Notes: a model not told the origin generated them from the sequence alone. Shown: positions 1,914 through 51,445, counted from the first letter of the stretch. The stretch: DNA of 64,000 bases from Elusimicrobiota bacterium (GCA_023249645.1 JAHFCF010000006.1:56124-120123); one strand, 5' to 3'. Translations and numbers: made by a program.

Positions 1914-2486
1914 TCAAGTACGGGTCTTCAAGCGCAGGGACTTGAGCACAGACTCGAAAGCCGGCAGATCGTCCTTGTAATCCTGGCCCGCGGCCTTGAA
2001 TGCGAGCACGAGGAATCCTTGTTTCAAGGGCAGGATGACGCGGTCCTCGGTGATCAGCGCGTCGAAGGGGGGGAAGGCCGTGCCCGTGGGGATGTCCAGG
2101 GGTTCGATGCGGTGCTTGCGGGAGCTGACGATCCTCGTCGCCGCCCGGCCCGCGATCGTGATCATTCTGGGCTTGGAGACGCGCCAGGCCTTGTCCTGGC
2201 CCAATCGTGCCTGCAGCGTCAGGAGGTAGTCTTGCGCCCCGCTTTGATGGGGCAGGCGCGTGGGGCTGTATTCGTCTTCCGGATGCGTCTCGATGTGGAT
2301 GCCCGGCCGAAAGCCCCGGGTCTTTCCCGGACCCAGGAGACTGGCGAGGCCCTCTTCGACCGGCCCGACGATCCATGGGGCCGGCACGTCATAGGAATAG
2401 GGTGCGCCCTTCGGGCTCACGACAGCGGCCTGAGCCGCTCCGGCGAGGATCAGGACGGCCAGCCTAACGGATGCGGCAGGCAGCAT
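1914..2486 (-). CDS. Hypothetical secreted protein (N-terminal signal peptide)
   Basis: 190-aa ORF with a hydrophobic N-terminus (LAVLILAGAAQAAVV). It overlaps the stop of the upstream paralog gene by 23 nt. No recognisable domain. Confidence 0.45.
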   Translation of the reverse strand: MLPAASVRLAVLILAGAAQAAVVSPKGAPYSYDVPAPWIVGPVEEGLASLLGPGKTRGFRPGIHIETHPEDEYSPTRLPHQSGAQDYLLTLQARLGQDKAWRVSKPRMITIAGRAATRIVSSRKHRIEPLDIPTGTAFPPFDALITEDRVILPLKQGFLVLAFKAAGQDYKDDLPAFESVLKSLRLKTRT

Positions 2487-4197
2487 ATTCCCAGGTTAAA
2501 GGAGATTCCATCAGCATCTCGACCATGATCCTGTTTTTTTTGGCTTCATTGAGCTTGGGAGCCGCCAGCCGCATGGAGAGCTCATCATACTTGAGGCGCA
2601 TGTTCTGGATGCTTGGATCGCTTTTTTTGAGGGCTTCGCACTCCGCGTGTTTGGCGGACCGCCATTCATCATTGAGGTGGCGCGCCTCTTGGTCAAAGCG
2701 CTCATCGACGGCCAATTGCGCAAGCTTCTCCTCGTCCTTGTCTTGCCGAGCTGATTGCTTTTGCTGATCCAGCGTCACTTGGCCAGCCTGTATTTCCTTC
2801 TTTGGATCAGCGCCATAATACCTGGAAATGAGATCTGCTCGGAAATCAGCAGAGGAGTCTTGAAACTTGTGGAAAATGTCCATCTCTCCATCGGGAAGAA
2901 GGTGGCCGCGTTTTTCCTTGAGTGCGTCGATGGCTTTGCGGTCAGTCTCGATCTGCGAGGGTGCAAGAGGGGTTCCTGAACTCTGAAGATCCTCTTCGAG
3001 TGCTTGGATCTTTTCGTTTAATTCCTGCATTTTATTGGAATAATAACGGTACTCCATCATCCAGGCATAGGTTTCATTGGCGTATTCATTGGTTTTGGGG
3101 TATACATTGTTTCCTCCGCCATGGGATCTGACATGGACGTGGCCCGCTTCATGGAGGAATGTGGCCGCCAAACATTCAATGGAAAAACGTTCCTTGGAGA
3201 TGGCCTCGATCGGCCGGATGATGATTTTGTAGCGGACGGTGTAGTCTGCATTTCGGAGAAGCTGTCCGTTCTGGTCCTTGGCTGTCGTCGTGATCGCGAA
3301 GTTGGGCGATGCGGGGTCCCATTGGATGATGGTGTGATTGCTCGCTACGGCTTCGATGGCTCGCCGCGCATCGGCCAGGGCGATGAGGTCCGTGTGCGGC
3401 GGCCGGCCTGAATCCACGGGCACGGCATGGACGGCCTCCCGCATCAGGGCGAGGATGGAGGCGTCGTAGACCGTGGACAGGGAGTCGACCTGCTGGAGGA
3501 GTTGGGCCTTGATCTGGGCGGGCGTCTGGACTTCGAAAGGCGCATGATCGGATAGGAAGCTGGACTTAATCACCGGCCAGTCAACCGTGTTTTTTCGATC
3601 GGCGCCGTCGAAGTGCGCGGAGAGCAGATAGAAGGCATTCATGCTGGAGGCTTTGTCAATGCCGAGGGGTTGGGACATCCAGGCAGATTGAGCCAGATGC
3701 AGTCCGAATCTTTTGAGCGCCGCGTGCGCGCGCGCCAGGCGTTTCTGCAGGCGCTCTCTTTTGGCCCGGACCGGGAGGGCGGTCGCATCCGCGGCGTCGA
3801 TGATGAATCGCGCGGTCTGGGCCAGGGTGAGCTGCTCTTCGGGCTGGGACATGATGAACGCGACGCGCTTCATCCTCAGGTATTCTTCCGGCGAAAGGCC
3901 CGAGAGCGCTTGCTCGCAGGCGCGGCTCCAGTCTTTGTCCGTGAGGCCGATCGCCGGCGCTTCCTGCCGGTCATAGCGTTCCCGGCATTTTTCCTGCGCC
4001 ACGGCTAGGATGTCCGTGGAGAGCATGGTCCGGCATTGCCAGTCCCAGTCGGCTCGGGTCAGGCCGTAGGGGGCTTCGTAGGATTTCTTGTATCGGCTCG
4101 AGCATCCGGCGGGGTCGAACGGCTGCGCCCGCAGCGATGGCGCGGCCCAGAAGACTGCGAGAAGAAGAAAAAAGCGTTTAACGGATCCGGCAGGCAT
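2464..4197 (-). CDS. Secreted HExxH-motif protein, putative zinc metallopeptidase-like (paralog A of a tandem pair)
   Basis: 577 aa with signal peptide MPAGSVKRFFLLLAVFWAAPSLRAQ. Carries a duplicated N-terminal motif C..RY..x..Y.L.R..WD..C, an FLHEAGHVHV motif and a C-terminal EYAACRIR tail. Collinear with paralog B at HTDLIAL, NHTII, YYGADPKKE and ACRIR. Confidence 0.55.
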   Translation of the reverse strand: MPAGSVKRFFLLLAVFWAAPSLRAQPFDPAGCSSRYKKSYEAPYGLTRADWDWQCRTMLSTDILAVAQEKCRERYDRQEAPAIGLTDKDWSRACEQALSGLSPEEYLRMKRVAFIMSQPEEQLTLAQTARFIIDAADATALPVRAKRERLQKRLARAHAALKRFGLHLAQSAWMSQPLGIDKASSMNAFYLLSAHFDGADRKNTVDWPVIKSSFLSDHAPFEVQTPAQIKAQLLQQVDSLSTVYDASILALMREAVHAVPVDSGRPPHTDLIALADARRAIEAVASNHTIIQWDPASPNFAITTTAKDQNGQLLRNADYTVRYKIIIRPIEAISKERFSIECLAATFLHEAGHVHVRSHGGGNNVYPKTNEYANETYAWMMEYRYYSNKMQELNEKIQALEEDLQSSGTPLAPSQIETDRKAIDALKEKRGHLLPDGEMDIFHKFQDSSADFRADLISRYYGADPKKEIQAGQVTLDQQKQSARQDKDEEKLAQLAVDERFDQEARHLNDEWRSAKHAECEALKKSDPSIQNMRLKYDELSMRLAAPKLNEAKKNRIMVEMLMESPLTWEYAACRIR

Positions 4198-5959
4198 CGT
4201 AGCTCTCCATTAACTTGTTATAGGCGAGATTCAGTTGTGCCCCTCGTCGGTTGAGCGCGTTTTTTTGGGATTCCGATAGTCCGGGTTCATGGGTTCGGAT
4301 GACAATGATGTTGATCTTTTTTCTCAAGTCATTGACGACAGGATCGTTGATGAGCAGGGATCGGCATTCCTCTTTTTTGGCAGTGCGCCATTCTTGGTCG
4401 CGTTGGCGTGTTTCAGCTTCGAAGTCCTCATCCGTGGCCAGTTCTTTGAGCACGGCTGCGCTTTTGATGTCCAGCGCCCATTTTTTTTGCTGCAGGATCG
4501 TCACCTGGCCGGGAAAGATTTCATCTTCTTTGGGGTCAGTGCCATAGTAATCACGGATCATCTCTTCGCGAAACTCAGCAGGCGAGCTCTGGAATGTTTC
4601 CAGGCCGAGCATTTCGGTCTCTGGCATGAAATGGTCCCGCAGGCGTGTGAGCGCTGCAATGGTTTTTGTGAGGTGTTTGCGATCGACCCAAGTCAGAGGG
4701 CTTGGCGAATGGTCGAGATTTTGAGTCAGTCTTTTTATTTGTTCGTTGAACCTCTGGCGCTTGTTCGAGAAATAACGCGCTTCCATTTGATGGGCGTGTA
4801 TTTCATCCGTGTAATTGTTTTTTCCTCCTCCTTGAGCATTGAGATGCACATGGCCGCCGACTTCATGCAAAAGAACTCCAGCTAAAAATTCCAGCGGGTA
4901 ACGGCTCGTTGTGCAAGGCTCTCCGGGTTTGATGGATACTTGATAGCGCCAGGTGCCATCCGCGTTTTTTATCGCTGGGCGGGGTAGAGCTTTCTCTGGT
5001 TTATCTGATTCGGTGAACGTTGTGGCGTAGCTTTTTGATTTGCGGTTTAAAACGATGATGGTATGGTTTAAAATGATGGTTTCAATGGTGTCTTGGACAT
5101 CGGATAGGGCGATGAAGTCCGTGTGCGGCAGCAGCCCTGAGTTGATGGGCACGGAATCGACGAGTTCGCGCATCATGGCGATGATCAGGGGATCATAGGT
5201 CCGTCGGCCCTTTTCGTCTTTGAGCGTGTTCAGGGAGGATATTTGGGCCAGGAGACGAGTCTTGACTTGGAACGGGTCCGGGCGCGTCGGTGCGGCCAGG
5301 CGCGGGGCCGGGCGTTTGGACGCGAGAAAAATGGGGGAAAGCCTGGAGGGCGTCAGGCCGGCGTTGTCAAAGAAATGCGCTGCTTTCCGGTGGAATTCCT
5401 CCGAGGTCTTGGCTTGACCCATCTCGACGGGGAGCGCTCTCAAGTCCGACTCGGCCAAGGAATGTGAGAATCTTTGCCTGGCGGCTTCGGCTTGTTTGAG
5501 GCGGATATGCCACCGTGCCCTTTGTATCAGAATTTTTGGATCCTTCGAATCACTCGTGTCGAACATGAAATCGAAGACATCAGCCACGGTGATCTTATTG
5601 TCCGGCTTTGAGAGGAAACCCCGGATGCGCTGAGCCCGCAGGTATTGTTCCGGGGACACGAATTCCTTCTGCGCTTGATCGCAGTAATCGCGCTCCCACA
5701 TCTCCCTGGTCAGACCGATGTTCTTGCCCTCGTCAGGGTCGTATTTCGCCTTGCATATCTCCTGGGCGATGATCCGGATGTCCGCGGGGACCATCCCCTC
5801 TTCGCATTTGGAATCCCACTCCTCTCGGTTTAAGGAATAAGTCCGATAGGTGTCTTTATACCGTCGTTTGCAATCTTCGATATAGACGGGCGTGACCCCC
5901 CAGGCGCGCGGGGCCATGAGGATCGCGAGAAGGATCAAATAGCGCGCGTGGTTGTGCAT
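4178..5959 (-). CDS. Secreted HExxH-like-motif protein, paralog B of the tandem pair
   Basis: The ORF track gives 4178..6007. The start is more likely the ATG at 5959 (MHNHARYLILLAILMAPRAWG signal peptide, with an AGAGG RBS 10 nt upstream). Motifs: LLHEVGGHVHL, HTDFIAL, NHTII, YYGTDPKED, C-terminal SYDACRIR. Shares the N-terminal Cys-repeat module with paralog A. Confidence 0.55.
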   Translation of the reverse strand: MHNHARYLILLAILMAPRAWGVTPVYIEDCKRRYKDTYRTYSLNREEWDSKCEEGMVPADIRIIAQEICKAKYDPDEGKNIGLTREMWERDYCDQAQKEFVSPEQYLRAQRIRGFLSKPDNKITVADVFDFMFDTSDSKDPKILIQRARWHIRLKQAEAARQRFSHSLAESDLRALPVEMGQAKTSEEFHRKAAHFFDNAGLTPSRLSPIFLASKRPAPRLAAPTRPDPFQVKTRLLAQISSLNTLKDEKGRRTYDPLIIAMMRELVDSVPINSGLLPHTDFIALSDVQDTIETIILNHTIIVLNRKSKSYATTFTESDKPEKALPRPAIKNADGTWRYQVSIKPGEPCTTSRYPLEFLAGVLLHEVGGHVHLNAQGGGKNNYTDEIHAHQMEARYFSNKRQRFNEQIKRLTQNLDHSPSPLTWVDRKHLTKTIAALTRLRDHFMPETEMLGLETFQSSPAEFREEMIRDYYGTDPKEDEIFPGQVTILQQKKWALDIKSAAVLKELATDEDFEAETRQRDQEWRTAKKEECRSLLINDPVVNDLRKKINIIVIRTHEPGLSESQKNALNRRGAQLNLAYNKLMESYDACRIR

Positions 5960-6012
5960 GGAGAAGCCTCTATAAGGAAAGATAACAGAAGCAGTCACAT
6001 CGCGCATGAGCC

Positions 6013-6098
6013 AAAAGACCTAATTAGGTCTAGGTCCTTTTCCAGCCGCTTTCTAGGTCTAAAGCTCCAGAGAGATTGGAGGTCCGCTGAGCTATGAT
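6013..6098 (+). promoter_or_regulatory. Promoter region of gene 6134 with a CTAGGTC(C/T) motif array and a -10-like TATGAT (6093-6098)
   Basis: Contains aaaagacctaattaggtctaggtcctttt (including the perfect 16-nt palindrome agacctaattaggtct), ctttctaggtctaaagc and ggaggtccgc, followed by gctATGATgt and an RBS ggagcaagcc ahead of ATG 6134. Confidence 0.35.
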
Positions 6099-6133
6099 GT
6101 AGGCATGTTTGAAAACCGGCGCAGGAGCAAGCC

Positions 6134-7801
6134 ATGAAACGCTTCCTGGCCTTGGCTCTGAGCTTGACGCTATCCGGGATGCCTGTACGCGCCTTTGCCG
6201 TCGTGGTGCCTTCAGGGGTTGGCTCCACGCCGAGGCCATTCATCCTCGCCGGCCTTCGCGCTGATCTGACTGAGCCGCAGAAGCTCATCGCGCGGCAAGT
6301 GGACGCTGCCGTGGCTTCTCTCACGGCTGAGCAGCTCCGCGCGGCTCCGAGCTTGGCAAGATATCGGGGGATCGATTGGGGAGATCCGGGCTACAAGGCG
6401 ATGGCGCGCTACCTGGAATTCTCCATCCTGCCCCAGGATTCCAAACCGGAGGTCCTGGCCGTACGGCTGGAGGAAGCCCGCGCCGGGGCTGGCCAGGCGA
6501 TCCAGGAGCAGATCCGCAAGGCCTTGGAAGATCGGCTGGCGAACATGACTTTGGGGAATCAGGAAGAGGCCGCGGCAGTGCTCGCTGAGTTGGACCGGGA
6601 GATCGCGGAGTTAAAGCTTCGCCAGACGTTCCCGCAGGAGGTCTCTCTGGGCTTTTCACACGCCGCCCTTCGTGTCAATGAGATGCTGCTTCAGATCACC
6701 GCATCCCAGGCTGTGGAGGAGGTCGTCGCGGCGCCGATGCCGCAGGCTGAAGAACGGAGCCTGCTGTCGCTGCCGAAAGGTCCCGCCCCCGAGGTCGTGG
6801 AAGCTGAGATCGTTTCTCCACAGGATGAGTACAGGATCTTCGATAAAGTGCTTTCAGGCCGCAACATCAGCAGGCCTGCCAGCGACCAAGCCAAAGAGCG
6901 GGGCGTCTTTATTCAGAAAAATTATCACGGCGGTGTGGGACAAATCAAGCTCCCTGAGGAAGCCCGGTATGTCGTCTGGTCCGGGGACGGGGAAGAGGGA
7001 ATCTGGCGCAGAAAAGACGACGGTCGCTATGAGAAATTGTCCGCCACGACCATTGCTGATCTGGCGTTGTTGACAAGAAACTTCGCGAGTCAGAAGGCGT
7101 CTGCCCAAGATCAGGCGTTTAATGAAAGGATGTATACCTCAGACCTGGATCTTAGAAAAACAAAGTTCTTGGATGTTCGTGGCCAGGAAATCGAATACGC
7201 CCCATTCTTCATCGTTAAAACTGGTTTATGGAGGGTCAATGCGGCTGCTTACCAGCCACCGAAGCTGCTGAGACCGCTTACTCTCAAAAATCATCTGGCC
7301 GGTGGTTGGTTGAGCCTTACGCTGGCGGCATGGCCTGGTTTTTTCCTTAACCCGGACCTCTTCACCTTGGCCACGCAGGATTTTACGGTCCTTGGATTGC
7401 TTATTGCATCTGGTTGGGCAGGCACAATAATTGTTGGTTTCGTCTTGAAAAAAAGACTGACAAACGATGAACAAGAAAAATTGATTAAGGATAGCCTTCC
7501 AGCTGCTTTCAAGGCATGGGCTTGCACGGATGAGGGGCGGATCCGGGTTTTGCTAACGGCTGCCATGCTCCCATGGTTGGCCCCCGCTGTTGTTTTTGGA
7601 GCCGGTGCTTTTGCTTTATGGTTTCTGCCGCATATGTTGACGGCTTCTCTGGGGACCGGTGTGTATGCCGCTTATTGCGCGCTGCGCGCCGGCCGGAGCT
7701 ATCGGGAAATGACCCAACGCCTTACGGATTGGAAAAAGGCCCAGCTGGGATTTCAGCCGAACGCCAAGGGACTTCCTTATTCAAGGAGCAAGAAGTCATG
7801 A
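6134..7801 (+). CDS. Hypothetical signal-peptide protein with Gln/Glu-rich coiled-coil region and C-terminal transmembrane helices
   Basis: 555 aa with signal peptide MKRFLALALSLTLSGMPVRAFA. The C-terminal 150 aa are hydrophobic (LTLAAWPGFFL..., LGLLIASGWAGTIIVGFVL, LPWLAPAVVFGAGAFALWFL). Its stop overlaps the start of the M28 gene (ATGA). Confidence 0.5.
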   Translation: MKRFLALALSLTLSGMPVRAFAVVVPSGVGSTPRPFILAGLRADLTEPQKLIARQVDAAVASLTAEQLRAAPSLARYRGIDWGDPGYKAMARYLEFSILPQDSKPEVLAVRLEEARAGAGQAIQEQIRKALEDRLANMTLGNQEEAAAVLAELDREIAELKLRQTFPQEVSLGFSHAALRVNEMLLQITASQAVEEVVAAPMPQAEERSLLSLPKGPAPEVVEAEIVSPQDEYRIFDKVLSGRNISRPASDQAKERGVFIQKNYHGGVGQIKLPEEARYVVWSGDGEEGIWRRKDDGRYEKLSATTIADLALLTRNFASQKASAQDQAFNERMYTSDLDLRKTKFLDVRGQEIEYAPFFIVKTGLWRVNAAAYQPPKLLRPLTLKNHLAGGWLSLTLAAWPGFFLNPDLFTLATQDFTVLGLLIASGWAGTIIVGFVLKKRLTNDEQEKLIKDSLPAAFKAWACTDEGRIRVLLTAAMLPWLAPAVVFGAGAFALWFLPHMLTASLGTGVYAAYCALRAGRSYREMTQRLTDWKKAQLGFQPNAKGLPYSRSKKS

Positions 7802-40354: not shown

Positions 40355-41686
40355 ATGACCCTGCGCAGAAAAAATCTTTGTGCCGTCATTCTGGCATGCT
40401 CCCTGACCGGGTGCGCGACACCCAAGCCCGCGGTGACTGTCTTCGAACTTGTTTCCAGGGCACCGGCGCAGCTGACGGCCCGTGAGGAATGCGTGGTCAA
40501 GAGCGTGATGCCGGGTTCGCCGGCCGCCCAGGGAGGGATCAGGGCGGGGGATGCCCTCACGGGGTTGAACCGGGACACCGCGCCTGCCGGGGATTTGAAT
40601 TTCGAGGCGTTCCTCTCCAGCCGCACGGGGCCGTTCCAAGTCGAACTCACGCGTCAGGGAAAGCCGCTGCAGCTGGATATCATGCACACGGAAGATCTTC
40701 ATCCTTTCGGGGTGACCTGCGATTTTGGCGACATCGAGGCCAGCCAGGACGAGGCGTTTGTGGCCATCAAGGGCTCGCTCGAGCTTCTGGTGCGCGCGGA
40801 AGTGATCGGTCCGGCGAGCTTCATCTGGGTCCGCCTTCAGAACCGCTCCACCAAGCCGCTCAAGGTCTCTCCGGATATGTTTTCGGCCTCGTCGGCGGAT
40901 TGGACGATCTTGAACCCCATCCGCTTCTCCGACATGGTCTCCTCTCTGCAGGCGATGGAGGTCTCGGGCCGCTTCGCGGGCAAGGGGGCTGAGTCAGCGA
41001 GCTATACCTTCGGCGTGGGCGACGCCCTCAGTCAGATCCCCAACATCATCCCCATCCCGGGAGCCGGCATGGGCGCCAACTTTCTTTTGAAGAACACGGG
41101 CCTGACGGACATGGTGAATGCTCAAACATCCTCCGTGACTTCCCTGCCCTTGGGAGAGGAGAACGGGCTCGGGCCGAGGTTCCGGGGCGCCAGCAAAGGA
41201 TTGGCGGCCACCTGGATCCCATCGAGCGGCAACGTGGACAGCGACCTGGCCGTGGCGGCCAACGAGATCATCCGCAGAAAACCCTTCCGGGAGACGGTGC
41301 TGACTCCGGGCTACGCCCAGGAAGGCTATCTGTATTTCGAGCAGCCGGACAAGCTGCCCTTGCGCCTGAGCCTAGATGCCGGCGAAGAGCATCTGGCGCT
41401 CCTCTTCGACGAGAAAAAATTCACGATGACCCCGCGGGAGCTGGCAGTCTACGCCCGGGGCGTCCCCGAGTTTTCGCACAAACAGGCGGTCCTGGCCGAC
41501 GGCCAGTTCTTCGAAGGGGAGATCGGCGCCTGGGATCGCATGGCGCACGGATTCAAGACCCGGATCCGCAAGAACGGCCAGGAAGTGAAAAGCAAACTGC
41601 TTCTTAAGGACATCCGGATCCTGAAGGTCGCGGGCCGCAACACCATCTTGGTGGCGGAGCCGCCCAAACCGGCGAAGCCTCAGTAG
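40355..41686 (+). CDS. Lipoprotein with PDZ domain
   Basis: Lipobox LTGCATP. PDZ-like VVKSVMPGSPAAQGGIRAGDALTGLN. The rest is unassigned. Confidence 0.6.
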   Translation: MTLRRKNLCAVILACSLTGCATPKPAVTVFELVSRAPAQLTAREECVVKSVMPGSPAAQGGIRAGDALTGLNRDTAPAGDLNFEAFLSSRTGPFQVELTRQGKPLQLDIMHTEDLHPFGVTCDFGDIEASQDEAFVAIKGSLELLVRAEVIGPASFIWVRLQNRSTKPLKVSPDMFSASSADWTILNPIRFSDMVSSLQAMEVSGRFAGKGAESASYTFGVGDALSQIPNIIPIPGAGMGANFLLKNTGLTDMVNAQTSSVTSLPLGEENGLGPRFRGASKGLAATWIPSSGNVDSDLAVAANEIIRRKPFRETVLTPGYAQEGYLYFEQPDKLPLRLSLDAGEEHLALLFDEKKFTMTPRELAVYARGVPEFSHKQAVLADGQFFEGEIGAWDRMAHGFKTRIRKNGQEVKSKLLLKDIRILKVAGRNTILVAEPPKPAKPQ

Positions 41687-41717
41687 CGGTAGTTGTCCGG
41701 CTTGTAGGGCCCATCGG
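41680..41717. repeat. Direct repeat, left copy: 38-nt duplicate of the ahcY 3' end (TCAGTAGCGGTAGTTGTCCGGCTTGTAGGGCCCATCGG)
   Basis: Identical to 42032-42069. It supplies the TAG stop of the PDZ lipoprotein gene. Confidence 0.85.
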
Positions 41718-42031
41718 CTGGCAGCATCCAACAGAGCTTTCAATGCGGTGCTGATCGCGCCGCATTGAAAGCAGCGCGTCCCCTTTCCGATGGGACGCGC
41801 AACAACGCAAAGGTCTTTAGAAATTCGACGCGAGTGAGGAATAGCTCTCGCGTCGGGCTTTCAGCCCCATGGAAAGCCATGGGACTGAAAGCTTTGGGAC
41901 AGAATCGTGTTCGGAGGATAGTTATCCACAAACTCTTCGCGCGAAGAGTCAGCGGAGGAACTTGGTACGCACCGAGTTGGTGGCAGTCACTCGCGCTTAA
42001 CTCGCCGCGCGGCGAGTCGGTGGATAAGTCT
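41718..42031. other. 314-bp hairpin-dense insert between the duplicated ahcY 3' ends; candidate structured ncRNA or miniature mobile-element remnant
   Basis: At least six consecutive non-identical stem-loops: gctttcaatgcgg/ccgcattgaaagc, gcgcgtccc/gggacgcgc, cgacgcgag/ctcgcgtcg, gctttcag..ccccatgg aaag ccatggg..ctgaaagc, ctcttcg/cgaagag, ctcgccg/cggcgag. No ORF. No tmRNA, RNase P or SRP signature. Confidence 0.4.
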
Positions 42032-42069
42032 TCAGTAGCGGTAGTTGTCCGGCTTGTAGGGCCCATCGG
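42032..42069. repeat. Direct repeat, right copy: the authentic 3' end of ahcY
   Basis: Identical 38 nt to 41680-41717. Encodes the conserved SAHH C-terminus ...[11 protein letters not shown]. Confidence 0.85.
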
Positions 42070-43354
42070 TCGGAATGCCTAGGTATTCCGACTGCTCTCG
42101 AGTCAGGCGCGTGAGCTGGGCGCCGAGCTTTCCCAGATGCAGGCGAGCCACCTTCTCATCCAGGAGCTTGGGCAGGGTGTAGACCTGGTTCTTGTATTTG
42201 CCCTTGCCGCGGTTGGTCCACAGCTCGATTTGAGCCATGGTCTGGTTGGTGAAGGAGGCGCTCATGACGAAGCTGGGGTGGCCCGAGGCGCAGCCGAGGT
42301 TGACCAGGCGCCCCTCGGCCAGCAGGGTCAGTCTCTTGCCGTTGGGCCAGACGAACTGGTCCACCTGCGGCTTGATGTTGACCCTCTGCAGCTTCGAATC
42401 GCTGGTCAGAGAGGCCACGTCGATCTCCAAGTCGAAATGACCGATGTTGCAGACGATGGCCTGGTCCTTCATGGCGTCCAAGTGCTTGCGGGTGATGATG
42501 TCCCGGCAGCCCGTGGCCGTGATGAAGATGTCGCCCAGGGCGGCGGCCTCGTCCATGAGCACGACCTGGTAGCCTTCCATGCAGGCCTGAAGAGCGTTGA
42601 TAGGGTCGATCTCGGTCACGAGCACGCGTGCCCCCATGCCGCGCAAAGACTGGCAGCAGCCCTTGCCCACGTCGCCGTAGCCGGCCACGACACAGGTCTT
42701 GCCCGCGATCATGACGTCGGTGGCGCGCTTGATGCCGTCCAAAAGCGATTCCCGGCAGCCGTAGAGGTTGTCGAACTTCGACTTGGTGGTCGAATCATTC
42801 ACGTTGATGGCCGGGCACTTCAAGGTGCCGGCGGCCTGGCGCTGATAGAGCCGGTGCACGCCCGTGGTCGTCTCCTCGGAGAGGCCGATGATGTCCTTGA
42901 AGAGCTCGGGCTTCTGGTCATGGATCATGTTGGTCAGATCCCCGCCGTCGTCCAAAAGCAGCGTGGGGCCCAGGCCCTTGGGCCAAACGAGGGTCTGCTC
43001 GATGCACCAGTCGTATTCCTTTAAAGTCTCGCCCTTCCAGGCGAAGACAGGGACTCCGGCCTTGGCCACGGCGGCCGCCGCGTGGTCCTGGGTCGAGAAG
43101 ATGTTGCAGGAGCTCCAGCGCACGGAGGCTCCGAGCTCGACGAGGGTCTCGATCAAGACCGCGGTCTCGATGGTCATGTGCAGGCAGCCGGCGATGCGGG
43201 CGCCTTCCAGCGGCTTTTTGCCGCGGTATTCCTCGCGCAGGGCGCTTAAGCCCGGCATCTCGTATTGCGCGATGGTGATCTCTTTGCGGCCCCAATCGGC
43301 GAGACTGATGTCTTTGACTTTATAATCCATGGTGGAGGTGGTCATGTGCCTCAT
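42032..43354 (-). CDS. ahcY: Adenosylhomocysteinase (S-adenosyl-L-homocysteine hydrolase)
   Basis: NAD-binding motif ([15 protein letters not shown]). Conserved C-terminal KPDNYRY. 440 aa. Confidence 0.95.
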
Positions 43355-44415: not shown

Positions 44416-45017
44416 GTCGGCTCTCAGCAGGCTTTCTTCTGGTCGCGCTTCTCGGCGGCTGCCGTCATGCTGAGCCTCTGGTCGATTTTTCCAAACTGCA
44501 TCCGGCGGCGGTCTTGGACATCCGCTACGCCACGTCGAATAATTTCACGCATCAGCAGGTCTATCCCGTGGCGCGCTGCCTGCTTCGGCGTTCAGCCGCT
44601 GGCCGCCTGGCAGAGGCGGTAGCGGAATTCGAGTCCAGGGGCCTGCGGCTCAAGGTCTTCGACTGCTATCGGCCTTTGTCAGTCCAGAAGAAATTCTGGG
44701 CGCTCGTGCCTGATGAGCGCTATGTGGCCGATCCGGCCAAGGGTTCGCGCCATAATCGCGGCGCGGCCGTGGATGTTACCTTGACGGACGCGAGCGGACA
44801 CGAATTGGAGATGCCCACGGGCTATGATGATTTCACGGAGCATGCCCATCGCGATTGGGCTGGGGCTTCGGCTGCGGCGGCCAAGGATCGCGCACTTTTA
44901 GAGCAGGTCATGGCCCGGCACGGTTTTGTCGGGCTTGCCACAGAATGGTGGCACTTCGATGCGGCGGGCTGGGAGAGATATCCGGTCGAGGATGTCCCTT
45001 TCGACTCTGTTCCCTAG
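44412..45017 (+). CDS. D-alanyl-D-alanine dipeptidase (VanX/DdpX-like, M15 family) lipoprotein
   Basis: Sequence LDIRYATSNNFT...FDCYRP...SRHNRGAAVDVTL...EWWHFD matches VanX-family motifs. Lipobox LLGGC. Confidence 0.75.
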   Translation: MSRLSAGFLLVALLGGCRHAEPLVDFSKLHPAAVLDIRYATSNNFTHQQVYPVARCLLRRSAAGRLAEAVAEFESRGLRLKVFDCYRPLSVQKKFWALVPDERYVADPAKGSRHNRGAAVDVTLTDASGHELEMPTGYDDFTEHAHRDWAGASAAAAKDRALLEQVMARHGFVGLATEWWHFDAAGWERYPVEDVPFDSVP

Positions 45018-47068: not shown

Positions 47069-47496
47069 TTGTTCCTTATGGAGTCCACGATCTGCTGGTA
47101 GCCCGTGCAGCGGCACAGATGCCCGGCCATGGCCTTTCGGATGCCGCTGTGTTTTTTTGTTTGCAGGCGCGAGGCACTCATGAGGATTCCCGGCGTGCAG
47201 AAACCGCATTGGGAGCCGCCGTGCTTGAGGAAGGACTTCTGCAGGGGGTGGAGCTTGTCCGGCCGGCCGAGGTTTTCGACGGTCTCGATGGCGCGGCCCT
47301 GCATCTGCCCGATGGGGATCAGACAGCTGGTCGCCGGCAGGTCGTCGACGAGCACGGTGCAGGCCCCGCATTCGCCCTCCCCGCAGCCTTCCTTGGTCCC
47401 CGTGAGAGCGAAGTCCTCGCGCAACACGTCGATGAGCCTCTTGAAGGCAAGGCCCTTGTAGGTCCGCTTCTTGCCGTTGATCGTGAAAGTGATCAT
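47065..47496 (-). CDS. (2Fe-2S)-binding small subunit of the XDH-family oxidoreductase
   Basis: Sequences GCGEGECGACTVLVDD and CGFCTPG. Confidence 0.85.
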   Translation of the reverse strand: MITFTINGKKRTYKGLAFKRLIDVLREDFALTGTKEGCGEGECGACTVLVDDLPATSCLIPIGQMQGRAIETVENLGRPDKLHPLQKSFLKHGGSQCGFCTPGILMSASRLQTKKHSGIRKAMAGHLCRCTGYQQIVDSIRNK

Positions 47497-49724
47497 GGAG
47501 ACTTCCTCAGGAGCTCATGGCAGATCTTCTCGGGTAGGACCGGGATCTGGGAGAACCAGTGGCCGGTCGCATCCGCGATGGCCGCGACCACGGCCGGGGC
47601 CGGCAGGTCCATGGGCATCTCTCCCAAGCCTTTGGCGCCGTGGGGGCCGCGCGCATAGGGCTCCTCGACGATGGTCACGTCCATGGGCGGCGTGTCCTCG
47701 AAGGTGGGGATGAGATAGTTGGTGAGCTGGGAGTTCCTCATCCAGCCGCCCCGGAAGTCCGCATGCTCCCAAAGGGCCCACCCCAGGGCCTGGGCCGTGC
47801 CGCCCATGATCTGGCCTTTGGCGAGCCGCGGGTTGATGGCCTTGCCGATGTCCTGGGCGGTCGTGACCTGGCGCACGCGCGCCTCATAGGTGAGTTTGTC
47901 CACCTCCACCTCCACGGCCACGGCCGCGTAGGAGTAGACGCCGTAGGCCTCGCCGCGGAAGAGCTGGTCGTCCCAGGTGATGTCCGCGGGCTTCTCGAAT
48001 TGGACCTCGTAGCGTTTGACGGGTTCTCCGTCGCAGAGTACTTTAGCGGCCCGCTTGAGCGCCGCTTGCGTTCTGGGCAGCGTCCGGGAGGCCTTGAGGA
48101 GATCGGCTTTCAAGTCGTGAGCCGCGCGCTCGATGAGGCCCCCGATGACCATGGTGGTACGACTCGCCACGGTAGGCCCGCTGTTAGGAACCATCGCCGT
48201 GTCCGGGGTCTCGATGCGGATGAGGCTCGTAGGCAGGCCCAAGGCCTGGGCCGCGATCTGGGCGAAGATGGTCGATGTCCCCTGGCCCAGGTCGGTCGAG
48301 GCGGCCAGGATGGTGATGAGGCCGTCCTGAGAGAGAGAGACGCCGGCCCGGCTGGCCAGGGTGACCTCGCCGCTGCCGGTGAATCCCGCGCCGTGATGGC
48401 ACAGGGAGAATCCGATCCCGCGCCAGGTCGGGTTCGATCTTTTGGAGTTCCAGCGCGCGTATTCGCGCCGTTTCTGGGCATAGCGGCTTTTGGCGGCGCA
48501 GATCGAGAGGCACTTCAGGGCGCCCACGCTGTCCTTGAGATGCTGCCCCGTGGCCGTGAGGGTCCCGGGCCGCCAGGCGTTCTTGCGCCGCAGCTCCAGG
48601 GAGTCGATGCCCACGGCCAGGGCGACTTTCTCCATCTGGAGCTCGGCGGCGAATATGGCTTGCGGCACTCCGAAGCCGCGGAAGGCTCCGTTGGGCGGCG
48701 CGTTGGTCGCTACTGCGGTCGAGCGCACGCGGACGTGCAGGCATTCGTAGGCGCCGGTCGCGTGTAGGGTGGCGCGCGAGAGCACCACGGGAGAGCAGGT
48801 GGCGAAGGCCCCGCCGTCGATGGTGATCTCGATGTCCTGGGCCACGAGCCGGCCTTCCTTGGTGACCCCGGTCTTATGCCGGATGACCGCGGGATGGCGC
48901 TTGGTCGTGGAGGCCATGTCCTCCTCTCGGTCGTAGATGATCTTGACGGGTTTGCCGGCCTTGAGCGCGAGGAGCGCCGCGTGGCCCGCGATGATCGAGG
49001 GATAATCCTCCTTGCCGCCGAAGGCGCCTCCGGTCGCGGCCTGGATGATGCGGATCTTGTCCACGGGCTTGGCGAAGATCTTGACCAGGGCCTTGTGCAC
49101 GTAGTAGGGGCACTGCAGGGAGCCCAGGACCGTGATCGTGCCGTCCTTCTCGACCCAGGCGGCCACGCCTTGGTTTTCGAGGTAGGCCTGTTCCTGGTGG
49201 CCGACGCGGTATTCTCCCTGGATGACGAAGTCGGCCATGGCGAAGCCTTCCTCGATGTCGCCTTTCTCGACGAGGCAGGTCTTGAGCACGTTGTCCTCGC
49301 CGCGGATGACGTGCTTCCGGGCGAGGGAATCCTCGATGGAAAGGACGGGTTCCCACTCGTCGTATTCGACCTGGATGTGCTTGAGCGCCTCGGCGGCCTT
49401 GACTCTTTGCGCGTGGGCGACGAGGAGGATAGCCTGCTGGGGATGCATGACCAGGTCCTCGGTCAAAAGAGGCTGGTCGTGTTCGATGAAGAGGACGTTG
49501 TTGGCGCCGGGGATGTCCGTGCTGCGGGCGATGACGCACTCATCCCAGGGGAAGGATGCGTCGAAGGAGATCTTGGTGATGCGGCCGCGGGCGATCGTGG
49601 TGCGCAGGGTCGCGCCGAAGAGTCCGCCTGGGAACTGATAGTCATCGATGAACTTGGCCGTGCCGCAGAGTTTCTGCGGCGCATCCAGCCTTTCGACGCT
49701 GACCCCCACCTGGGCGGAGCTCAT
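47493..49724 (-). CDS. Molybdopterin-binding large subunit of the XDH-family oxidoreductase (xanthine dehydrogenase/aldehyde oxidoreductase type)
   Basis: 743 aa. Aldehyde-oxidase/xanthine-dehydrogenase a/b hammerhead and MoCo-binding regions (GGAFGGKE, AFRGFG). Confidence 0.85.
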   Translation of the reverse strand: MSSAQVGVSVERLDAPQKLCGTAKFIDDYQFPGGLFGATLRTTIARGRITKISFDASFPWDECVIARSTDIPGANNVLFIEHDQPLLTEDLVMHPQQAILLVAHAQRVKAAEALKHIQVEYDEWEPVLSIEDSLARKHVIRGEDNVLKTCLVEKGDIEEGFAMADFVIQGEYRVGHQEQAYLENQGVAAWVEKDGTITVLGSLQCPYYVHKALVKIFAKPVDKIRIIQAATGGAFGGKEDYPSIIAGHAALLALKAGKPVKIIYDREEDMASTTKRHPAVIRHKTGVTKEGRLVAQDIEITIDGGAFATCSPVVLSRATLHATGAYECLHVRVRSTAVATNAPPNGAFRGFGVPQAIFAAELQMEKVALAVGIDSLELRRKNAWRPGTLTATGQHLKDSVGALKCLSICAAKSRYAQKRREYARWNSKRSNPTWRGIGFSLCHHGAGFTGSGEVTLASRAGVSLSQDGLITILAASTDLGQGTSTIFAQIAAQALGLPTSLIRIETPDTAMVPNSGPTVASRTTMVIGGLIERAAHDLKADLLKASRTLPRTQAALKRAAKVLCDGEPVKRYEVQFEKPADITWDDQLFRGEAYGVYSYAAVAVEVEVDKLTYEARVRQVTTAQDIGKAINPRLAKGQIMGGTAQALGWALWEHADFRGGWMRNSQLTNYLIPTFEDTPPMDVTIVEEPYARGPHGAKGLGEMPMDLPAPAVVAAIADATGHWFSQIPVLPEKICHELLRKSP

Positions 49725-49769
49725 GACCGGGGTATTCTAGCAAAGACTGGCGGATGCCGTAGAGTAATC

Positions 49770-49833
49770 ATCAGGGTCGGGAGCCTAGGTCAAGAGACCT
49801 AGGAGGCGTAGGTCTTATGCGGGATTTTTTTTA
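49770..49833 (+). promoter_or_regulatory. CCTAGGTC inverted repeat (cctaggtc aaga gacctagg), additional TAGGTCT and palindrome GGCCCTTTGGCCC upstream of gene 49877
   Basis: Seen directly. Same CTAGGTC motif family as the other promoter arrays. Confidence 0.35.
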
Positions 49834-49876
49834 GGCCCTTTGGCCCTTACGGTTTTTCGGAGGAGGGGCTATCCTT

Positions 49877-50491
49877 ATGCGTATGAGAGGAACTCCTATG
49901 AAAAAGATCCGAGCCAGACTTGTTGCCATCGCGCTCTTGGCTAGTCCCGCGCCGCTTCTAGCGAAAGACGGGGGAGGCCTGGCTGCCGTCAAGAATAAGG
50001 CGGCCCGATTCTTCCAAGGAGCGGATGCCACCGCCAAGGAGACGTTCCAGAAAGCGGCTGAGGAACAAGCCCGCAGCGGCGCTCAGGATCAGGCGGCGAT
50101 CGCGGCGAGCGACGAGGCGCAAGACATGCTCAATCTGCGAAGGCGTGCTCTGGCCCAGTTGGCGTCTCGGCATGTGGATGCTGGTGAGCTGACCAAGGGG
50201 CCTGACATGGACGAGATGCAGATCATCTACGGCAACAGCCCGCCGGTGGCCGCTCCTGCGGATTCCAGGCTCAATAAGTTATTCGTCGCGGAGATGGCAG
50301 GCCGCCGCCGAGTGAACATGTCCGAGAACCGGGCGACGTGTTTTTATGCTGAGACCAAGGATCACGCCTACAAGATCGTCCTGAACGATTTATTGGAGAG
50401 GAATTGGCAGGCGGCTTCAGATGCTCTTGTGAGGATTTCTCATTCAGACACCGTGGAGCGTGTGTCGCTGACCAAAAAGGTCGCGCCCTAG
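49877..50491 (+). CDS. Hypothetical secreted protein
   Basis: 204 aa. GGAGG RBS. Signal peptide (MKKIRARLVAIALLASPAPLLA from the internal ATG 49898). Its TAG stop lies inside the duplicated purQ 3'-end copy. Confidence 0.45.
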   Translation: MRMRGTPMKKIRARLVAIALLASPAPLLAKDGGGLAAVKNKAARFFQGADATAKETFQKAAEEQARSGAQDQAAIAASDEAQDMLNLRRRALAQLASRHVDAGELTKGPDMDEMQIIYGNSPPVAAPADSRLNKLFVAEMAGRRRVNMSENRATCFYAETKDHAYKIVLNDLLERNWQAASDALVRISHSDTVERVSLTKKVAP

Positions 50492-50513
50492 CTCCGGCAG
50501 TATTCCACCGCGT
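50489..50513. repeat. Direct repeat, left copy: duplicate of the purQ 3' end (TAGCTCCGGCAGTATTCCACCGCGT)
   Basis: 24 of 25 nt identical to 50670-50694. A 156-bp insert (50514-50669) with a ttcgga/tccgaa stem-loop lies between the copies. Confidence 0.8.
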
Positions 50514-50668
50514 CCGGGTTGGGCTTTATGATCATTGAAGGTCGTGGCGCAGCTGAGCCAGGGGGATGGCCTCGACGTAACTTCCCAGTGGATATCCTTT
50601 TGTGCCGCATGAAATTTCGGATTAATACTCCGAATTTTCATTGAGAAGGCAAGCGGGTCTTTGAGGCC

Positions 50669-51445
50669 TTAGCCCCGGCAGTATTCCACCGCGTTGCGCA
50701 GCATCTCCAGGCCCACGGCCTGCTTGGCGAAAGTCTGGCGCGTCCAGTTGGGATGCTGGAAGGGCGTCGTGTAGCGCTCCGGATGCGGCATCATGCCCAG
50801 GCAGTTGCCCTCGGGATTGGAGAGGGCCGCGATGTTGAAGACCGAGCCGTCGGGATTGGCCGGATAGTCCGCCAGCTTGCCGTCGTCCGAGACGTACTGC
50901 ATGGCGATGGACTTGTTCTTCTTGAGCTCCTCGAGTTGGCGGGGGGATTTCAAGACCAGCTTGCCCTCGCCGTGCGCGACCGGCAGCTCGATCATCTCGG
51001 GCAGGCCCTTGAAGAAGAGGCACGAGCTCTGCGTGTTGAGCCTCAAGTGCACCCAGCGCGTCTCGAAGCGCCCGGAGTCGTTGGCCGTGAAGGATGCCGT
51101 CTGCTCGCCGGAATGCATGAGGGGCAGCGCCCCGGTCTTGACCAGGGCCTGGAAGCCGTTGGAGATGCCCAGCACCGGGCGGCTCAAGCGCACGAACTGG
51201 CGCAGCTCCTTGACGTAGAGCTTGAGCTGGTTGGCCAGGATCTTTCCCGCGGCCACGTCGTCGCCGTAGGAGAAGCCGCCCGGCAGGACCAGGATGTCGT
51301 AGTCCAACAGATGAACCTTGCCCGCTTTAAGGAGATTGATGTGCACGCGCTCGGGCGCGCCGCCAACGGATGAGAAGGCCTCGGCGGTCTCCGCGTCGCA
51401 ATTCGTTCCCGGAGCGCGCAGGACGAGGACCTTGGGCCTCTTCAT
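50669..51445 (-). CDS. purQ: Phosphoribosylformylglycinamidine synthase subunit PurQ (glutaminase)
   Basis: Class I glutamine amidotransferase: LPGGFSYGDD, catalytic SNGFQAL, HPER. ATG 51445 overlaps the purL stop. Confidence 0.9.
   Translation of the reverse strand: MKRPKVLVLRAPGTNCDAETAEAFSSVGGAPERVHINLLKAGKVHLLDYDILVLPGGFSYGDDVAAGKILANQLKLYVKELRQFVRLSRPVLGISNGFQALVKTGALPLMHSGEQTASFTANDSGRFETRWVHLRLNTQSSCLFFKGLPEMIELPVAHGEGKLVLKSPRQLEELKKNKSIAMQYVSDDGKLADYPANPDGSVFNIAALSNPEGNCLGMMPHPERYTTPFQHPNWTRQTFAKQAVGLEMLRNAVEYCRG
50670..50694. repeat. Direct repeat, right copy: the authentic purQ 3' end
   Basis: Encodes ...NAVEYCRG* of PurQ on the minus strand. Confidence 0.8.

What the first reader, a model, noticed from the sequence alone, without database searches (positions are those of the whole stretch)
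50489..50694. Second instance of the same architecture: purQ 3' end duplicated around a 156-bp insert
The last 25 nt of purQ (24/25 identical, with stop) are repeated 181 nt away. The distal copy again starts exactly at the stop codon (TAG) of the convergent upstream gene (49877-50491). The insert contains a ttcgga/tccgaa stem-loop. The layout is: convergent + gene, stop inside the duplicate, short insert, authentic 3' end of a conserved minus-strand gene. Two independent occurrences of this layout argue for a mechanism (3'-end-targeting integration, or a template-switch duplication process) rather than coincidence.
Basis: seen in the sequence. Interest (0 to 1): 0.6.

Follow-up and report, generated by a model that had tools for sequence, protein, structure and literature searches.

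The report
Insertion scar at purQ gene end
The last 25 bases of the purine-synthesis gene purQ really are duplicated: it is the footprint of foreign DNA inserted at the very end of the gene without breaking it, a known kind of event that here hits the same gene in several Elusimicrobia.

Summary
The repeat is real: 27/29 identical, 50485-50513 and 50666-50694. It is one of only two such repeats in the window; simulated sequence gave none. The right copy is the working end of purQ. The left copy is a non-coding scar.

The closest relatives (L086, L006) have purQ followed after 13 or 7 nt by the xanthine-dehydrogenase gene. So the whole 944-nt stretch 49725-50668 is lineage-specific. That includes the convergent ORF, which found no homologue in 5.8 billion proteins.

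The sister case at ahcY has its predicted empty site in a 91%-identical relative, with the same 7-nt gene overlap.

Three other Elusimicrobia genomes carry independent purQ-end duplications of 34, 44 and about 63 nt. They flank 0.6-2.9 kb of unrelated cargo: an ORF6N defence-candidate gene, secreted proteins and an MBL-fold protein.

Every repeat ends 0-8 nt past the stop codon (not defined for L038). No insert carries a recombinase, terminal inverted repeats or a second copy.

Best reading: attL/attR-like duplication from integration into the 3' end of a conserved gene. The enzyme is unresolved. The rivals are homology-anchored illegitimate recombination and template switching.

This is a known kind of event at new target genes. 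Interest is moderate to low.

The parts
50669..51445 (-). purQ (FGAM synthase glutaminase subunit), intact, 258 aa
   Evidence: ORF. Its exact protein is on record with Pfam GATase_5. Relatives are 70-90% identical.
50666..50694 (-). Proximal copy of the repeat: the last 8 codons of purQ, the TAA stop and 3 nt beyond. This is the functional gene end.
50514..50665 (.). 152-nt non-coding spacer between the two copies, GC 0.51. It has one A/T-rich hairpin (50609-50641), no known RNA family and no second copy.
50485..50513 (-). Distal copy of the purQ end (27/29). A non-functional scar that would read AVEYCRS-stop. It supplies the TAG stop of ORF204 on the + strand.
49877..50491 (+). ORF204: predicted secreted protein with no homologue found. 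It has a coding-like but atypical composition (GC3 0.68, against 0.83-0.91 in neighbouring core genes). It is part of the lineage-specific stretch.
49725..50668 (.). The whole 944-nt stretch that is absent from the nearest relatives. There purQ and xdhL are 13 nt (L086) or 7 nt (L006) apart, in the same direction.
47493..49724 (-). xdhL (molybdopterin xanthine-dehydrogenase-family large subunit). It is the ancestral downstream neighbour of purQ.
   Evidence: Pfam domains. Synteny in L006 and L086.
42032..42069 (-). Sister case, proximal copy: the last 35 nt and TGA stop of ahcY (ahcY is 42032-43354, minus strand).
41718..42031 (.). Sister case: 314-nt insert, GC 0.56, made of nested palindromes (RNA fold z = -7.5 and -9.1 on the two strands). 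No Rfam family matches.
41680..41717 (-). Sister case, distal copy (38/38). It holds the TAG stop (41684-41686) of the PDZ lipoprotein gene 40355-41686. That reproduces the 7-nt gene overlap seen in the uninterrupted relative.

Best explanation
SHOWN
- The repeat is a true duplication of the purQ terminus. The copy next to the gene keeps purQ complete. The other copy is a dead scar.
- Both copies lie in 944 nt of lower-GC DNA that the closest relatives lack.

INFERRED
- Foreign DNA entered at the very end of purQ by a single cross-over (Campbell-type) integration. The incoming DNA carried, or the reaction regenerated, a copy of the gene's last 25 nt or so plus the stop codon. The insert therefore ends up flanked by attL/attR-like direct repeats and the essential gene is never truncated.
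- This is the logic that integrative elements use at attachment sites inside the 3' ends of tRNA genes and conserved protein genes.
- Two successive integrations at the regenerated site would give the present order: purQ - repeat - spacer - repeat - ORF204 - xdhL. The ORF204 segment would have come first and the 152-nt segment second. The outermost third copy would since have been lost.
- The catalyst is not encoded in the inserts. It would be a recombinase acting in trans or since deleted, or the host's own homologous recombination acting on a circle that carried the short repeat.
- The ahcY case in the same window and the purQ cases in L033, L038 and L094 are further products of the same kind of event.

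CONFIDENCE
- That this is an insertion scar of this type: about 0.9.
- That the topology is att-type or Campbell-type rather than one of the rivals: about 0.45.
For: - Empty sites. L086 (purQ 90% aa identical) has purQ stop, 13 nt, then the xdhL ATG. L006 has a 7-nt gap. The contig carrying P0003 (ahcY 91% aa identical) has ahcY at 88-1401 and a convergent gene at 1395-2540. That is the 7-nt overlap predicted by removing the 314-nt insert and one repeat.
- Recurrence at the same gene end with unrelated cargo. L033 has 34/34 around 631 nt. L094 has 44/44 around 1826 nt. L038 has 56/63 around 2.9 kb. That is 3 of about 160 purQ loci. No other gene end among roughly 1300 flanking genes shows it.
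- In all four sharp-edged events the repeat ends 0, 2, 3 or 8 nt past the stop codon of the conserved gene, while its start varies from 25 to 44 nt upstream. That is what an element-borne or regenerated 'surrogate 3' end' predicts. A randomly placed staggered cut does not predict it.
- In L038 the distal copy is an 89%-identical, indel-free alternative purQ C-terminus with its own stop.
- The inserted DNA looks foreign. GC is 0.51-0.59 against 0.62 for the window. ORF204 has GC3 0.68 against 0.83-0.91 in core genes. ORF204 has no homologue in 5.8e9 proteins.
- Tandem arrays separated by partial target-gene copies, recombinase-less remnants and attP-borne gene fragments are documented for integrative elements (PMC7192596; bioRxiv 10.1101/2020.12.28.424599).
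Against: - None of the five inserts encodes a recombinase (Pfam).
- A box-II tyrosine-recombinase motif scan of the window and about 170 loci found nothing credible.
- The inserts, at 152 nt to 2.9 kb, are far smaller than typical integrative elements. L033 looks like a neat single-gene cassette rather than a deletion remnant.
- Four of the five repeat pairs are identical or nearly so and include lineage-specific variants: GAA for Glu in the window, and Ala in AVAYCRG in L094. This fits an in-situ duplication or a conspecific donor better than a widely travelling element with its own attP.
- No viral contig carries these gene-end sequences or a purQ relative.
- The third repeat copy that the tandem model needs next to xdhL is not detectable.
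- Most islets at the purQ-purF junction have no repeats at all.
Confidence: 0.45

Rival explanations
1. Homology-facilitated illegitimate recombination. A linear fragment from a related strain (purQ end plus that strain's different downstream DNA) recombined homologously inside purQ. Its far end joined illegitimately 25-70 nt upstream of the recipient's stop codon. That duplicates the recipient's gene end. No dedicated recombinase is needed.
For: - The repeat ends where homology between strains would end, just after the stop.
- The 5' edge varies.
- No recombinase gene, no shared insert ends and unrelated cargo.
- Both purQ and ahcY are conserved genes that border synteny breakpoints with very different downstream neighbours in relatives.
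- Lineage-specific variants shared by both copies fit a conspecific donor.
- The diverged L038 copy fits a more distant donor.
Against: - All five events duplicate a 3' end and none a 5' end. An anchor in the downstream gene should be equally possible. The numbers are small, roughly p = 0.03.
- No donor with the spacer as native purQ-downstream sequence was found among about 160 loci.
- Microhomology at the joint cannot be seen once the repeat is defined by identity.
Confidence: 0.25
2. Replication template switching. A fork stalled at the gene end, the nascent strand copied another template, then returned 25-45 nt behind the stall point and re-copied the gene end.
For: - Sharp repeat edges, with no extended flanking similarity.
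- Exact in-situ copies with lineage-specific variants.
- One edge fixed near the stop codon and the other variable.
- Genes here abut or overlap at convergent ends, where collisions are plausible.
- The ahcY insert is built of palindromes.
Against: - The inserts are foreign-looking, carry gene cargo and have no source copy in the window or loci.
- The L038 copies are 11% diverged yet indel-free.
- Recurrence at one particular gene across lineages is not predicted.
Confidence: 0.12
3. Transposition with an unusually long target-site duplication (staggered cuts 29-44 nt apart), by MITE-like or cassette-like elements mobilised in trans.
For: - Exact flanking duplications of 34, 38 and 44 nt.
- Part of the ahcY insert (41922-42027) has 28-nt imperfect inverted arms. 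One arm matches L047 at 24/25.
- Long, variable duplications are known for a few IS (IS1634 and IS1549 groups; from my own knowledge).
Against: - No terminal inverted repeats at the ends of any whole insert.
- No shared ends, no second copies and no transposase.
- The duplication length is not constant.
- The repeat lies almost wholly on the conserved gene's side of the junction in every case.
Confidence: 0.1
4. Chance similarity or an assembly or binning artefact.
For: All the sequences are from metagenome assemblies.
Against: - Zero comparable repeats in 20 simulated windows.
- Identical structure in independent assemblies from different runs.
- Analogous structures in unrelated studies: L033, L038 and L094.
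Confidence: 0.02

Closest known systems
Integrative genetic elements that use an attB inside the 3' end of a conserved protein gene. Examples from my own knowledge are phage 21 and e14 at icd, and ICESt1/ICESt3 at fda with 27-bp repeats. The general rule is in PMC7192596.
   Same: - Direct repeats flank the insert and one of them completes the target gene.
- The repeat block runs to the end of the gene.
- Uninterrupted sites exist in relatives.
- The same gene is hit repeatedly.
- Tandem arrays are possible.
   Different: - No integrase in or beside any insert.
- The inserts are 0.15-2.9 kb instead of several kb or more.
- No free element or attP was found.
- purQ and ahcY are not among the targets listed in that paper's text or held supplements.
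CIMEs (cis-mobilisable elements), and the partial-tRNA-flanked remnants in Prochlorococcus islands described with tycheposons (bioRxiv 10.1101/2020.12.28.424599).
   Same: - Recombinase-less cargo flanked by att-type partial copies of the target gene.
- Successive integrations push older material outward.
   Different: - Those remnants sit next to recognisable autonomous elements in the same taxon. None is known here.
- The target here is a protein gene, not a tRNA gene.
- The spacers here can be non-coding and as short as 152 nt.
Homology-facilitated illegitimate recombination in naturally transformable bacteria (de Vries and Wackernagel 2002; from my own knowledge).
   Same: - A conserved gene serves as the one-sided anchor.
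- The cargo is arbitrary foreign DNA.
- No dedicated enzyme is needed.
   Different: - Described events mostly delete recipient DNA rather than duplicate it.
- No donor or microhomology could be shown here.
IS elements with long, variable target duplications (IS1634 and IS1549 groups; from my own knowledge).
   Same: Flanking direct repeats of tens of bases, with variable length.
   Different: Those repeats flank a recognisable IS with a transposase and inverted ends. These inserts have neither.

Membership tests
Integrative genetic element att duplication at a CDS 3' end | Direct repeats flank the insert, and the gene-proximal copy restores the target gene | tested here: met
   27/29 repeat at 50485-50513 and 50666-50694. 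purQ is intact through its stop. The same holds at ahcY, 38/38.
Integrative genetic element att duplication at a CDS 3' end | An uninterrupted target (empty site) exists in related genomes | tested here: met
   L086 and L006 have purQ then xdhL 13 and 7 nt apart. The P0003 contig has ahcY and a convergent gene overlapping by 7 nt (gene coordinates only, no DNA).
Integrative genetic element att duplication at a CDS 3' end | An integrase (tyrosine or serine recombinase) is encoded in the element | tested here: not met
   No recombinase domain in any insert protein (Pfam). The motif scan of the window and about 170 loci was negative. Serine recombinases were checked only by the Pfam scan of insert ORFs.
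Integrative genetic element att duplication at a CDS 3' end | The same target gene is used in independent genomes | tested here: met
   purQ-end duplications in L033, L038 and L094 with different repeat lengths and cargo. No other gene end in 1.35 Mb of flanks shows it.
Integrative genetic element att duplication at a CDS 3' end | A free or excised form carrying attP with the gene fragment | tested here: inconclusive
   No match to the purQ or ahcY end sequences, and no purQ relative, in IMG/VR contigs. Plasmids and reads could not be searched.
CIME-like recombinase-less remnant | Flanked by att sites and devoid of recombination genes, with a cognate autonomous element in the same taxon | tested here: inconclusive
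   The first two features are met. No cognate autonomous element was found in any locus examined.
Transposon or MITE with target-site duplication | Terminal inverted repeats at the insert ends | tested here: not met
   No inverted repeat pairs the termini of 50514-50665 or of 41718-42031. Only internal palindromes are present.
Transposon or MITE with target-site duplication | Multiple copies, and a constant duplication length | tested here: not met
   No second copy in the window or in about 170 loci. Duplications are 29, 34, 38, 44 and about 63 nt.
Diversity-generating retroelement (template and variable repeat at a gene's 3' end) | A reverse transcriptase gene nearby, and mismatches confined to adenines of the template copy | tested here: not met
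   The called genes around both sites match core metabolic or other non-RT proteins, but only ORF204 and the PDZ lipoprotein were scanned against Pfam. The two mismatches are G/A and A/G in opposite directions. The repeats are 29-38 nt, not about 100 nt or more.
Homology-facilitated illegitimate recombination product | A conserved anchor gene next to a strain-variable region, and inserted DNA of foreign composition | tested here: met
   Downstream neighbours of purQ and ahcY differ widely among relatives. Insert GC is 0.51-0.59 against 0.62.
Homology-facilitated illegitimate recombination product | Microhomology at the illegitimate joint, and an identifiable donor arrangement | not testable with these tools
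   Any microhomology is absorbed into the repeat. No donor was found among the loci fetched.

The most novel reading that the evidence does not exclude
Elusimicrobia may have a recombinase-independent or trans-acting cassette-insertion process. It would place small cargo between tightly packed genes by targeting the last 25-45 nt of conserved genes and duplicating that segment exactly. The cargo would be single defence-candidate genes such as ORF6N/PDC-S05, secreted orphan proteins or hairpin spacers. This would be a way of building micro-islets distinct from classical integrase-bearing elements.
Probability: 0.15. Interest if true: 0.7.

Novelty: new member of a known kind. Interest (0 to 1): 0.35.

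Why it matters
It marks the purQ 3' end, and probably the ahcY 3' end, as a recurrent entry point for accessory DNA in an uncultured phylum. It gives exact insertion boundaries with empty sites for comparison. It also shows that very small, recombinase-less inserts can carry the same gene-end duplication as large integrative elements.

If the enzyme could be found, or shown not to be needed, that would explain how compact genomes with overlapping genes take up new genes without damaging essential ones. As it stands, this is a tidy example of a known phenomenon at new target genes.

Tried and rejected
- **Known RNA families.** Rfam at gathering and permissive thresholds found nothing in either insert.
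- **A third, decayed purQ-end copy next to xdhL,** which the tandem model needs. The best alignment is no better than shuffles or control windows.
- **A longer, decayed duplication upstream of the distal copy** (50543-50572 against 50692-50721, 70%). It is marginal, p about 0.02-0.12 depending on the test, so I did not rely on it. No extended flank similarity exists in the ahcY, L033 or L094 events either.
- **Shared features between the two window inserts, or with the L033, L038 and L094 inserts.** None by blastn or tblastx.
- **ORF6N genes as self-mobile units with flanking repeats.** The other four ORF6N copies (two in L033, one each in L060 and L062) have no flanking repeats.
- **Recombinases.** The Pfam scan of insert proteins and the motif scan were negative.
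- **A viral source or attP.** Four IMG/VR pattern scans and one protein scan were negative.
- **More of the same genome.** One look-up failed on a wrong start codon. The other added only about 2 kb beyond the window.
- **The P0186 lipoprotein homologue's contig.** It is too short to show ahcY.
- **ahcY-end duplications in six relatives' loci.** None found.

Full report
**1. The observation**

The sequence is as described. 50489-50513 and 50670-50694 match at 24 of 25 positions. The match extends to 27 of 29 over 50485-50513 and 50666-50694, with spacing 181.

The right copy is the last eight codons of purQ (minus strand, 50669-51445), its TAA stop and three further bases. The left copy contains the TAG stop (50489-50491) of the + strand ORF 49877-50491. 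The hairpin at 50609-50641 is present. The 152-156-nt spacer as a whole does not fold better than shuffled sequence (z = -0.53), and it matches no Rfam family.

A scan of the whole window for direct repeats of 25 nt or more with at most one mismatch within 3 kb returns only two. One is this repeat. The other is the 38/38 repeat at the end of ahcY (41680-41717 and 42032-42069). Twenty Markov simulations returned none.

Independent Logan contigs from two other sequencing runs are 100% identical across the structure. So it is neither chance nor an assembly artefact.

**2. What the relatives show at purQ**

The window comes from an uncultured Elusimicrobia bacterium.

The closest purQ found is L086, 90% identical in protein. 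There the purQ stop is followed after 13 nt by the start of the xanthine-dehydrogenase large-subunit gene, in the same direction. L006 has the same arrangement with a 7-nt gap. More distant relatives have purF or purD downstream instead.

In the window the two genes are 944 nt apart (49725-50668). That stretch holds, in order from purQ:
- the 152-nt spacer;
- the distal repeat copy;
- ORF204 on the opposite strand;
- another 152 nt.

ORF204 finds only itself among 5.8 billion proteins and has no Pfam, PHROG or PADLOC match. Its codon-position GC looks like coding sequence, but its GC3 is 0.68 against 0.83-0.91 for the neighbouring core genes.

So the 'convergent upstream gene' is itself part of the inserted material. 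The ancestral state at purQ was not a convergent gene pair.

**3. The sister case at ahcY**

Here the ancestral state was a convergent overlap. In the contig that carries the closest ahcY (P0003, 91% identical), ahcY occupies 88-1401 and a convergent gene occupies 1395-2540. That is a 7-nt overlap. No DNA is available for this contig, only gene coordinates.

Removing the 314-nt insert and one repeat copy from the window recreates the same 7-nt overlap (TCAGTAG, 41680-41686). The convergent gene in the window is a PDZ-domain lipoprotein with a 59-60% identical homologue elsewhere.

The 314-nt insert is a stack of nested palindromes. It folds far better than shuffles on both strands (z = -7.5 and -9.1). 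It shares nothing with the purQ spacer.

**4. Recurrence at purQ**

I fetched about 160 purQ-centred loci from species-representative genomes and from metagenomes. I searched downstream of each for copies of its own purQ end. Three more cases appeared, each in a different lineage and with different cargo.

| Locus | Repeat | Insert | Cargo |
|---|---|---|---|
| L033 | 34/34 | 631 nt | one ORF6N gene (Pfam 5.7e-30; PADLOC defence candidate PDC-S05, 1.6e-53) |
| L094 | 44/44 | 1826 nt | two secreted-protein genes |
| L038 | 56/63 | 2.9 kb, AT-richer | three or four genes, one an MBL-fold protein resembling defence effectors |

In L033 a convergent gene takes its stop from the distal copy. In L038 the distal copy reads as an alternative purQ C-terminus with its own stop.

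An unbiased repeat scan of all loci (1.35 Mb) found no comparable duplication at any other gene end. The purQ-purF junction is also a general hot spot. It is adjacent in 38 loci. In 21 loci it is filled with 0.2-3.7 kb of unrelated genes, mostly without repeats. The neighbours downstream of ahcY also differ widely among relatives.

**5. Anatomy common to the events**

- Every repeat includes the stop codon of the conserved gene (in L038 the proximal repeat stops short of the stop and the distal copy has its own). In the four sharp-edged events (both in the window, L033 and L094) it ends 0, 2, 3 or 8 nt after that stop, while its start lies 25 to 44 nt upstream. In L038 similarity starts about 70 nt upstream and no sharp end can be defined.
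- The edges are sharp. There is no significant further similarity on either side.
- Four of the five repeat pairs are identical or nearly so. They contain lineage-specific states: GAA for Glu in the window, and the Ala of AVAYCRG in L094.
- No insert has terminal inverted repeats, a second copy, a transposase or a recombinase.
- A motif scan for tyrosine recombinases over the window and all loci was negative.
- IMG/VR viral contigs contain neither these gene-end sequences nor a purQ relative.

**6. Mechanism**

Shown:
- DNA was inserted at the extreme 3' end of a conserved gene.
- The gene's terminal segment was duplicated, so the gene stays intact.
- The same has happened repeatedly at purQ.

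Inferred: the process. The stop-codon-anchored edge, the recurrent target and the L038 'alternative C-terminus' fit the attachment-site logic of integrative elements. There the repeats are attL and attR, and repeated use of the regenerated site builds tandem arrays separated by partial gene copies (PMC7192596; bioRxiv 10.1101/2020.12.28.424599). Two successive integrations would give the present order at purQ, though the expected third copy next to xdhL cannot be detected.

Against this reading:
- no recombinase is found in or beside any insert;
- the inserts are tiny;
- the repeats are exact and host-specific.

Those points favour either a conspecific donor with host recombination or an in-situ duplication.

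My estimates:

| Mechanism | Probability |
|---|---|
| att-type or Campbell-type integration, catalyst unresolved | about 0.45 |
| Homology-anchored illegitimate recombination | about 0.25 |
| Replication template switching | about 0.12 |
| Long-duplication transposition | about 0.10 |
| Artefact or chance | about 0.02 |

**7. Comparison with what is known, and novelty**

The nearest known systems are:
- integrative elements targeting the 3' ends of protein genes (icd, fda);
- their recombinase-less remnants (CIMEs, and the partial-tRNA-flanked island remnants in Prochlorococcus).

Membership in the first family fails on the integrase criterion, so I do not file this as an integrative element. 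It works like one, topologically. purQ and ahcY are not among the targets named in the TIGER survey's text or held supplements.

I rate it a new member of a known kind, with moderate to low interest (0.35). The most novel reading not excluded is a recombinase-independent or trans-acting cassette-insertion process aimed at stop-codon-proximal sequence in Elusimicrobia. I give that about 0.15.

Noticed in passing
window 41718-42031: The ahcY insert consists of two composite palindromes. The first is 41732-41896, with four hairpins; the outer two both start GCTTTCA and end TGAAAGC. The second is 41922-42027, whose 28-nt imperfect arms begin TTATCCACA, the DnaA-box consensus. It folds exceptionally well on both strands (z = -7.5 and -9.1) and matches no Rfam family.
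   Followed up: partly
window 41920-41944 and L047:3460-3484: There is a 24/25 match between the left arm of the 106-nt palindrome and an intergenic or ORF-start region in a distant Elusimicrobia MAG. The rest of the insert has no similarity there. It may be a shared repeat-element end. The L047 contig ends 100 nt later.
   Followed up: partly
L033:4783-5413: A single ORF6N gene (PADLOC defence candidate PDC-S05; PHROG anti-repressor) sits as a compact one-gene insert. It lies exactly between 34-nt copies of the purQ end. Two further ORF6N paralogues lie 2-3 kb away without flanking repeats.
   Followed up: partly
L038:3348-6233: A 2.9-kb AT-richer islet lies between diverged purQ-end copies. 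It encodes two proteins with no family match, a 389-aa MBL-fold protein that matches defence-system effectors (LmuA 1.4e-15, DRT-associated MBL, Avs1a) and a 135-aa ORF with a weak cytochrome b561 match. It may be an undescribed defence system.
   Followed up: no
purQ-purF junction in L017-L050 and L100-L115: This junction is a general variable hot spot in Elusimicrobia. It holds 0.2-3.7 kb of unrelated cargo, including VapBC-like pairs (L027, L034), IS5-like transposase N-termini (L022, L103) and a recurrent membrane protein of about 190 aa (L036, L037, L039, L115).
   Followed up: partly
window 45014-45017, 57432/57433, 32056/32069: Other convergent gene pairs in this genome overlap by 4 nt, abut with no gap, or are 12 nt apart. 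Any insertion between such genes must duplicate or damage a gene end.
   Followed up: no
window 3369-3469 and 5098-5198: A 101-nt direct repeat at 76% identity, 1.7 kb apart, lies in a poorly resolved gene region (about 2464-7573). It probably reflects paralogous genes.
   Followed up: no
L170:4815-4982: The 168-nt spacer downstream of ahcY in an 87%-identical relative also carries long perfect hairpins, for example CCCCTACAGGCCACGC...GCGTGGCCTGTAGGGG. They are similar in style to the window's 314-nt insert but not in sequence.
   Followed up: no
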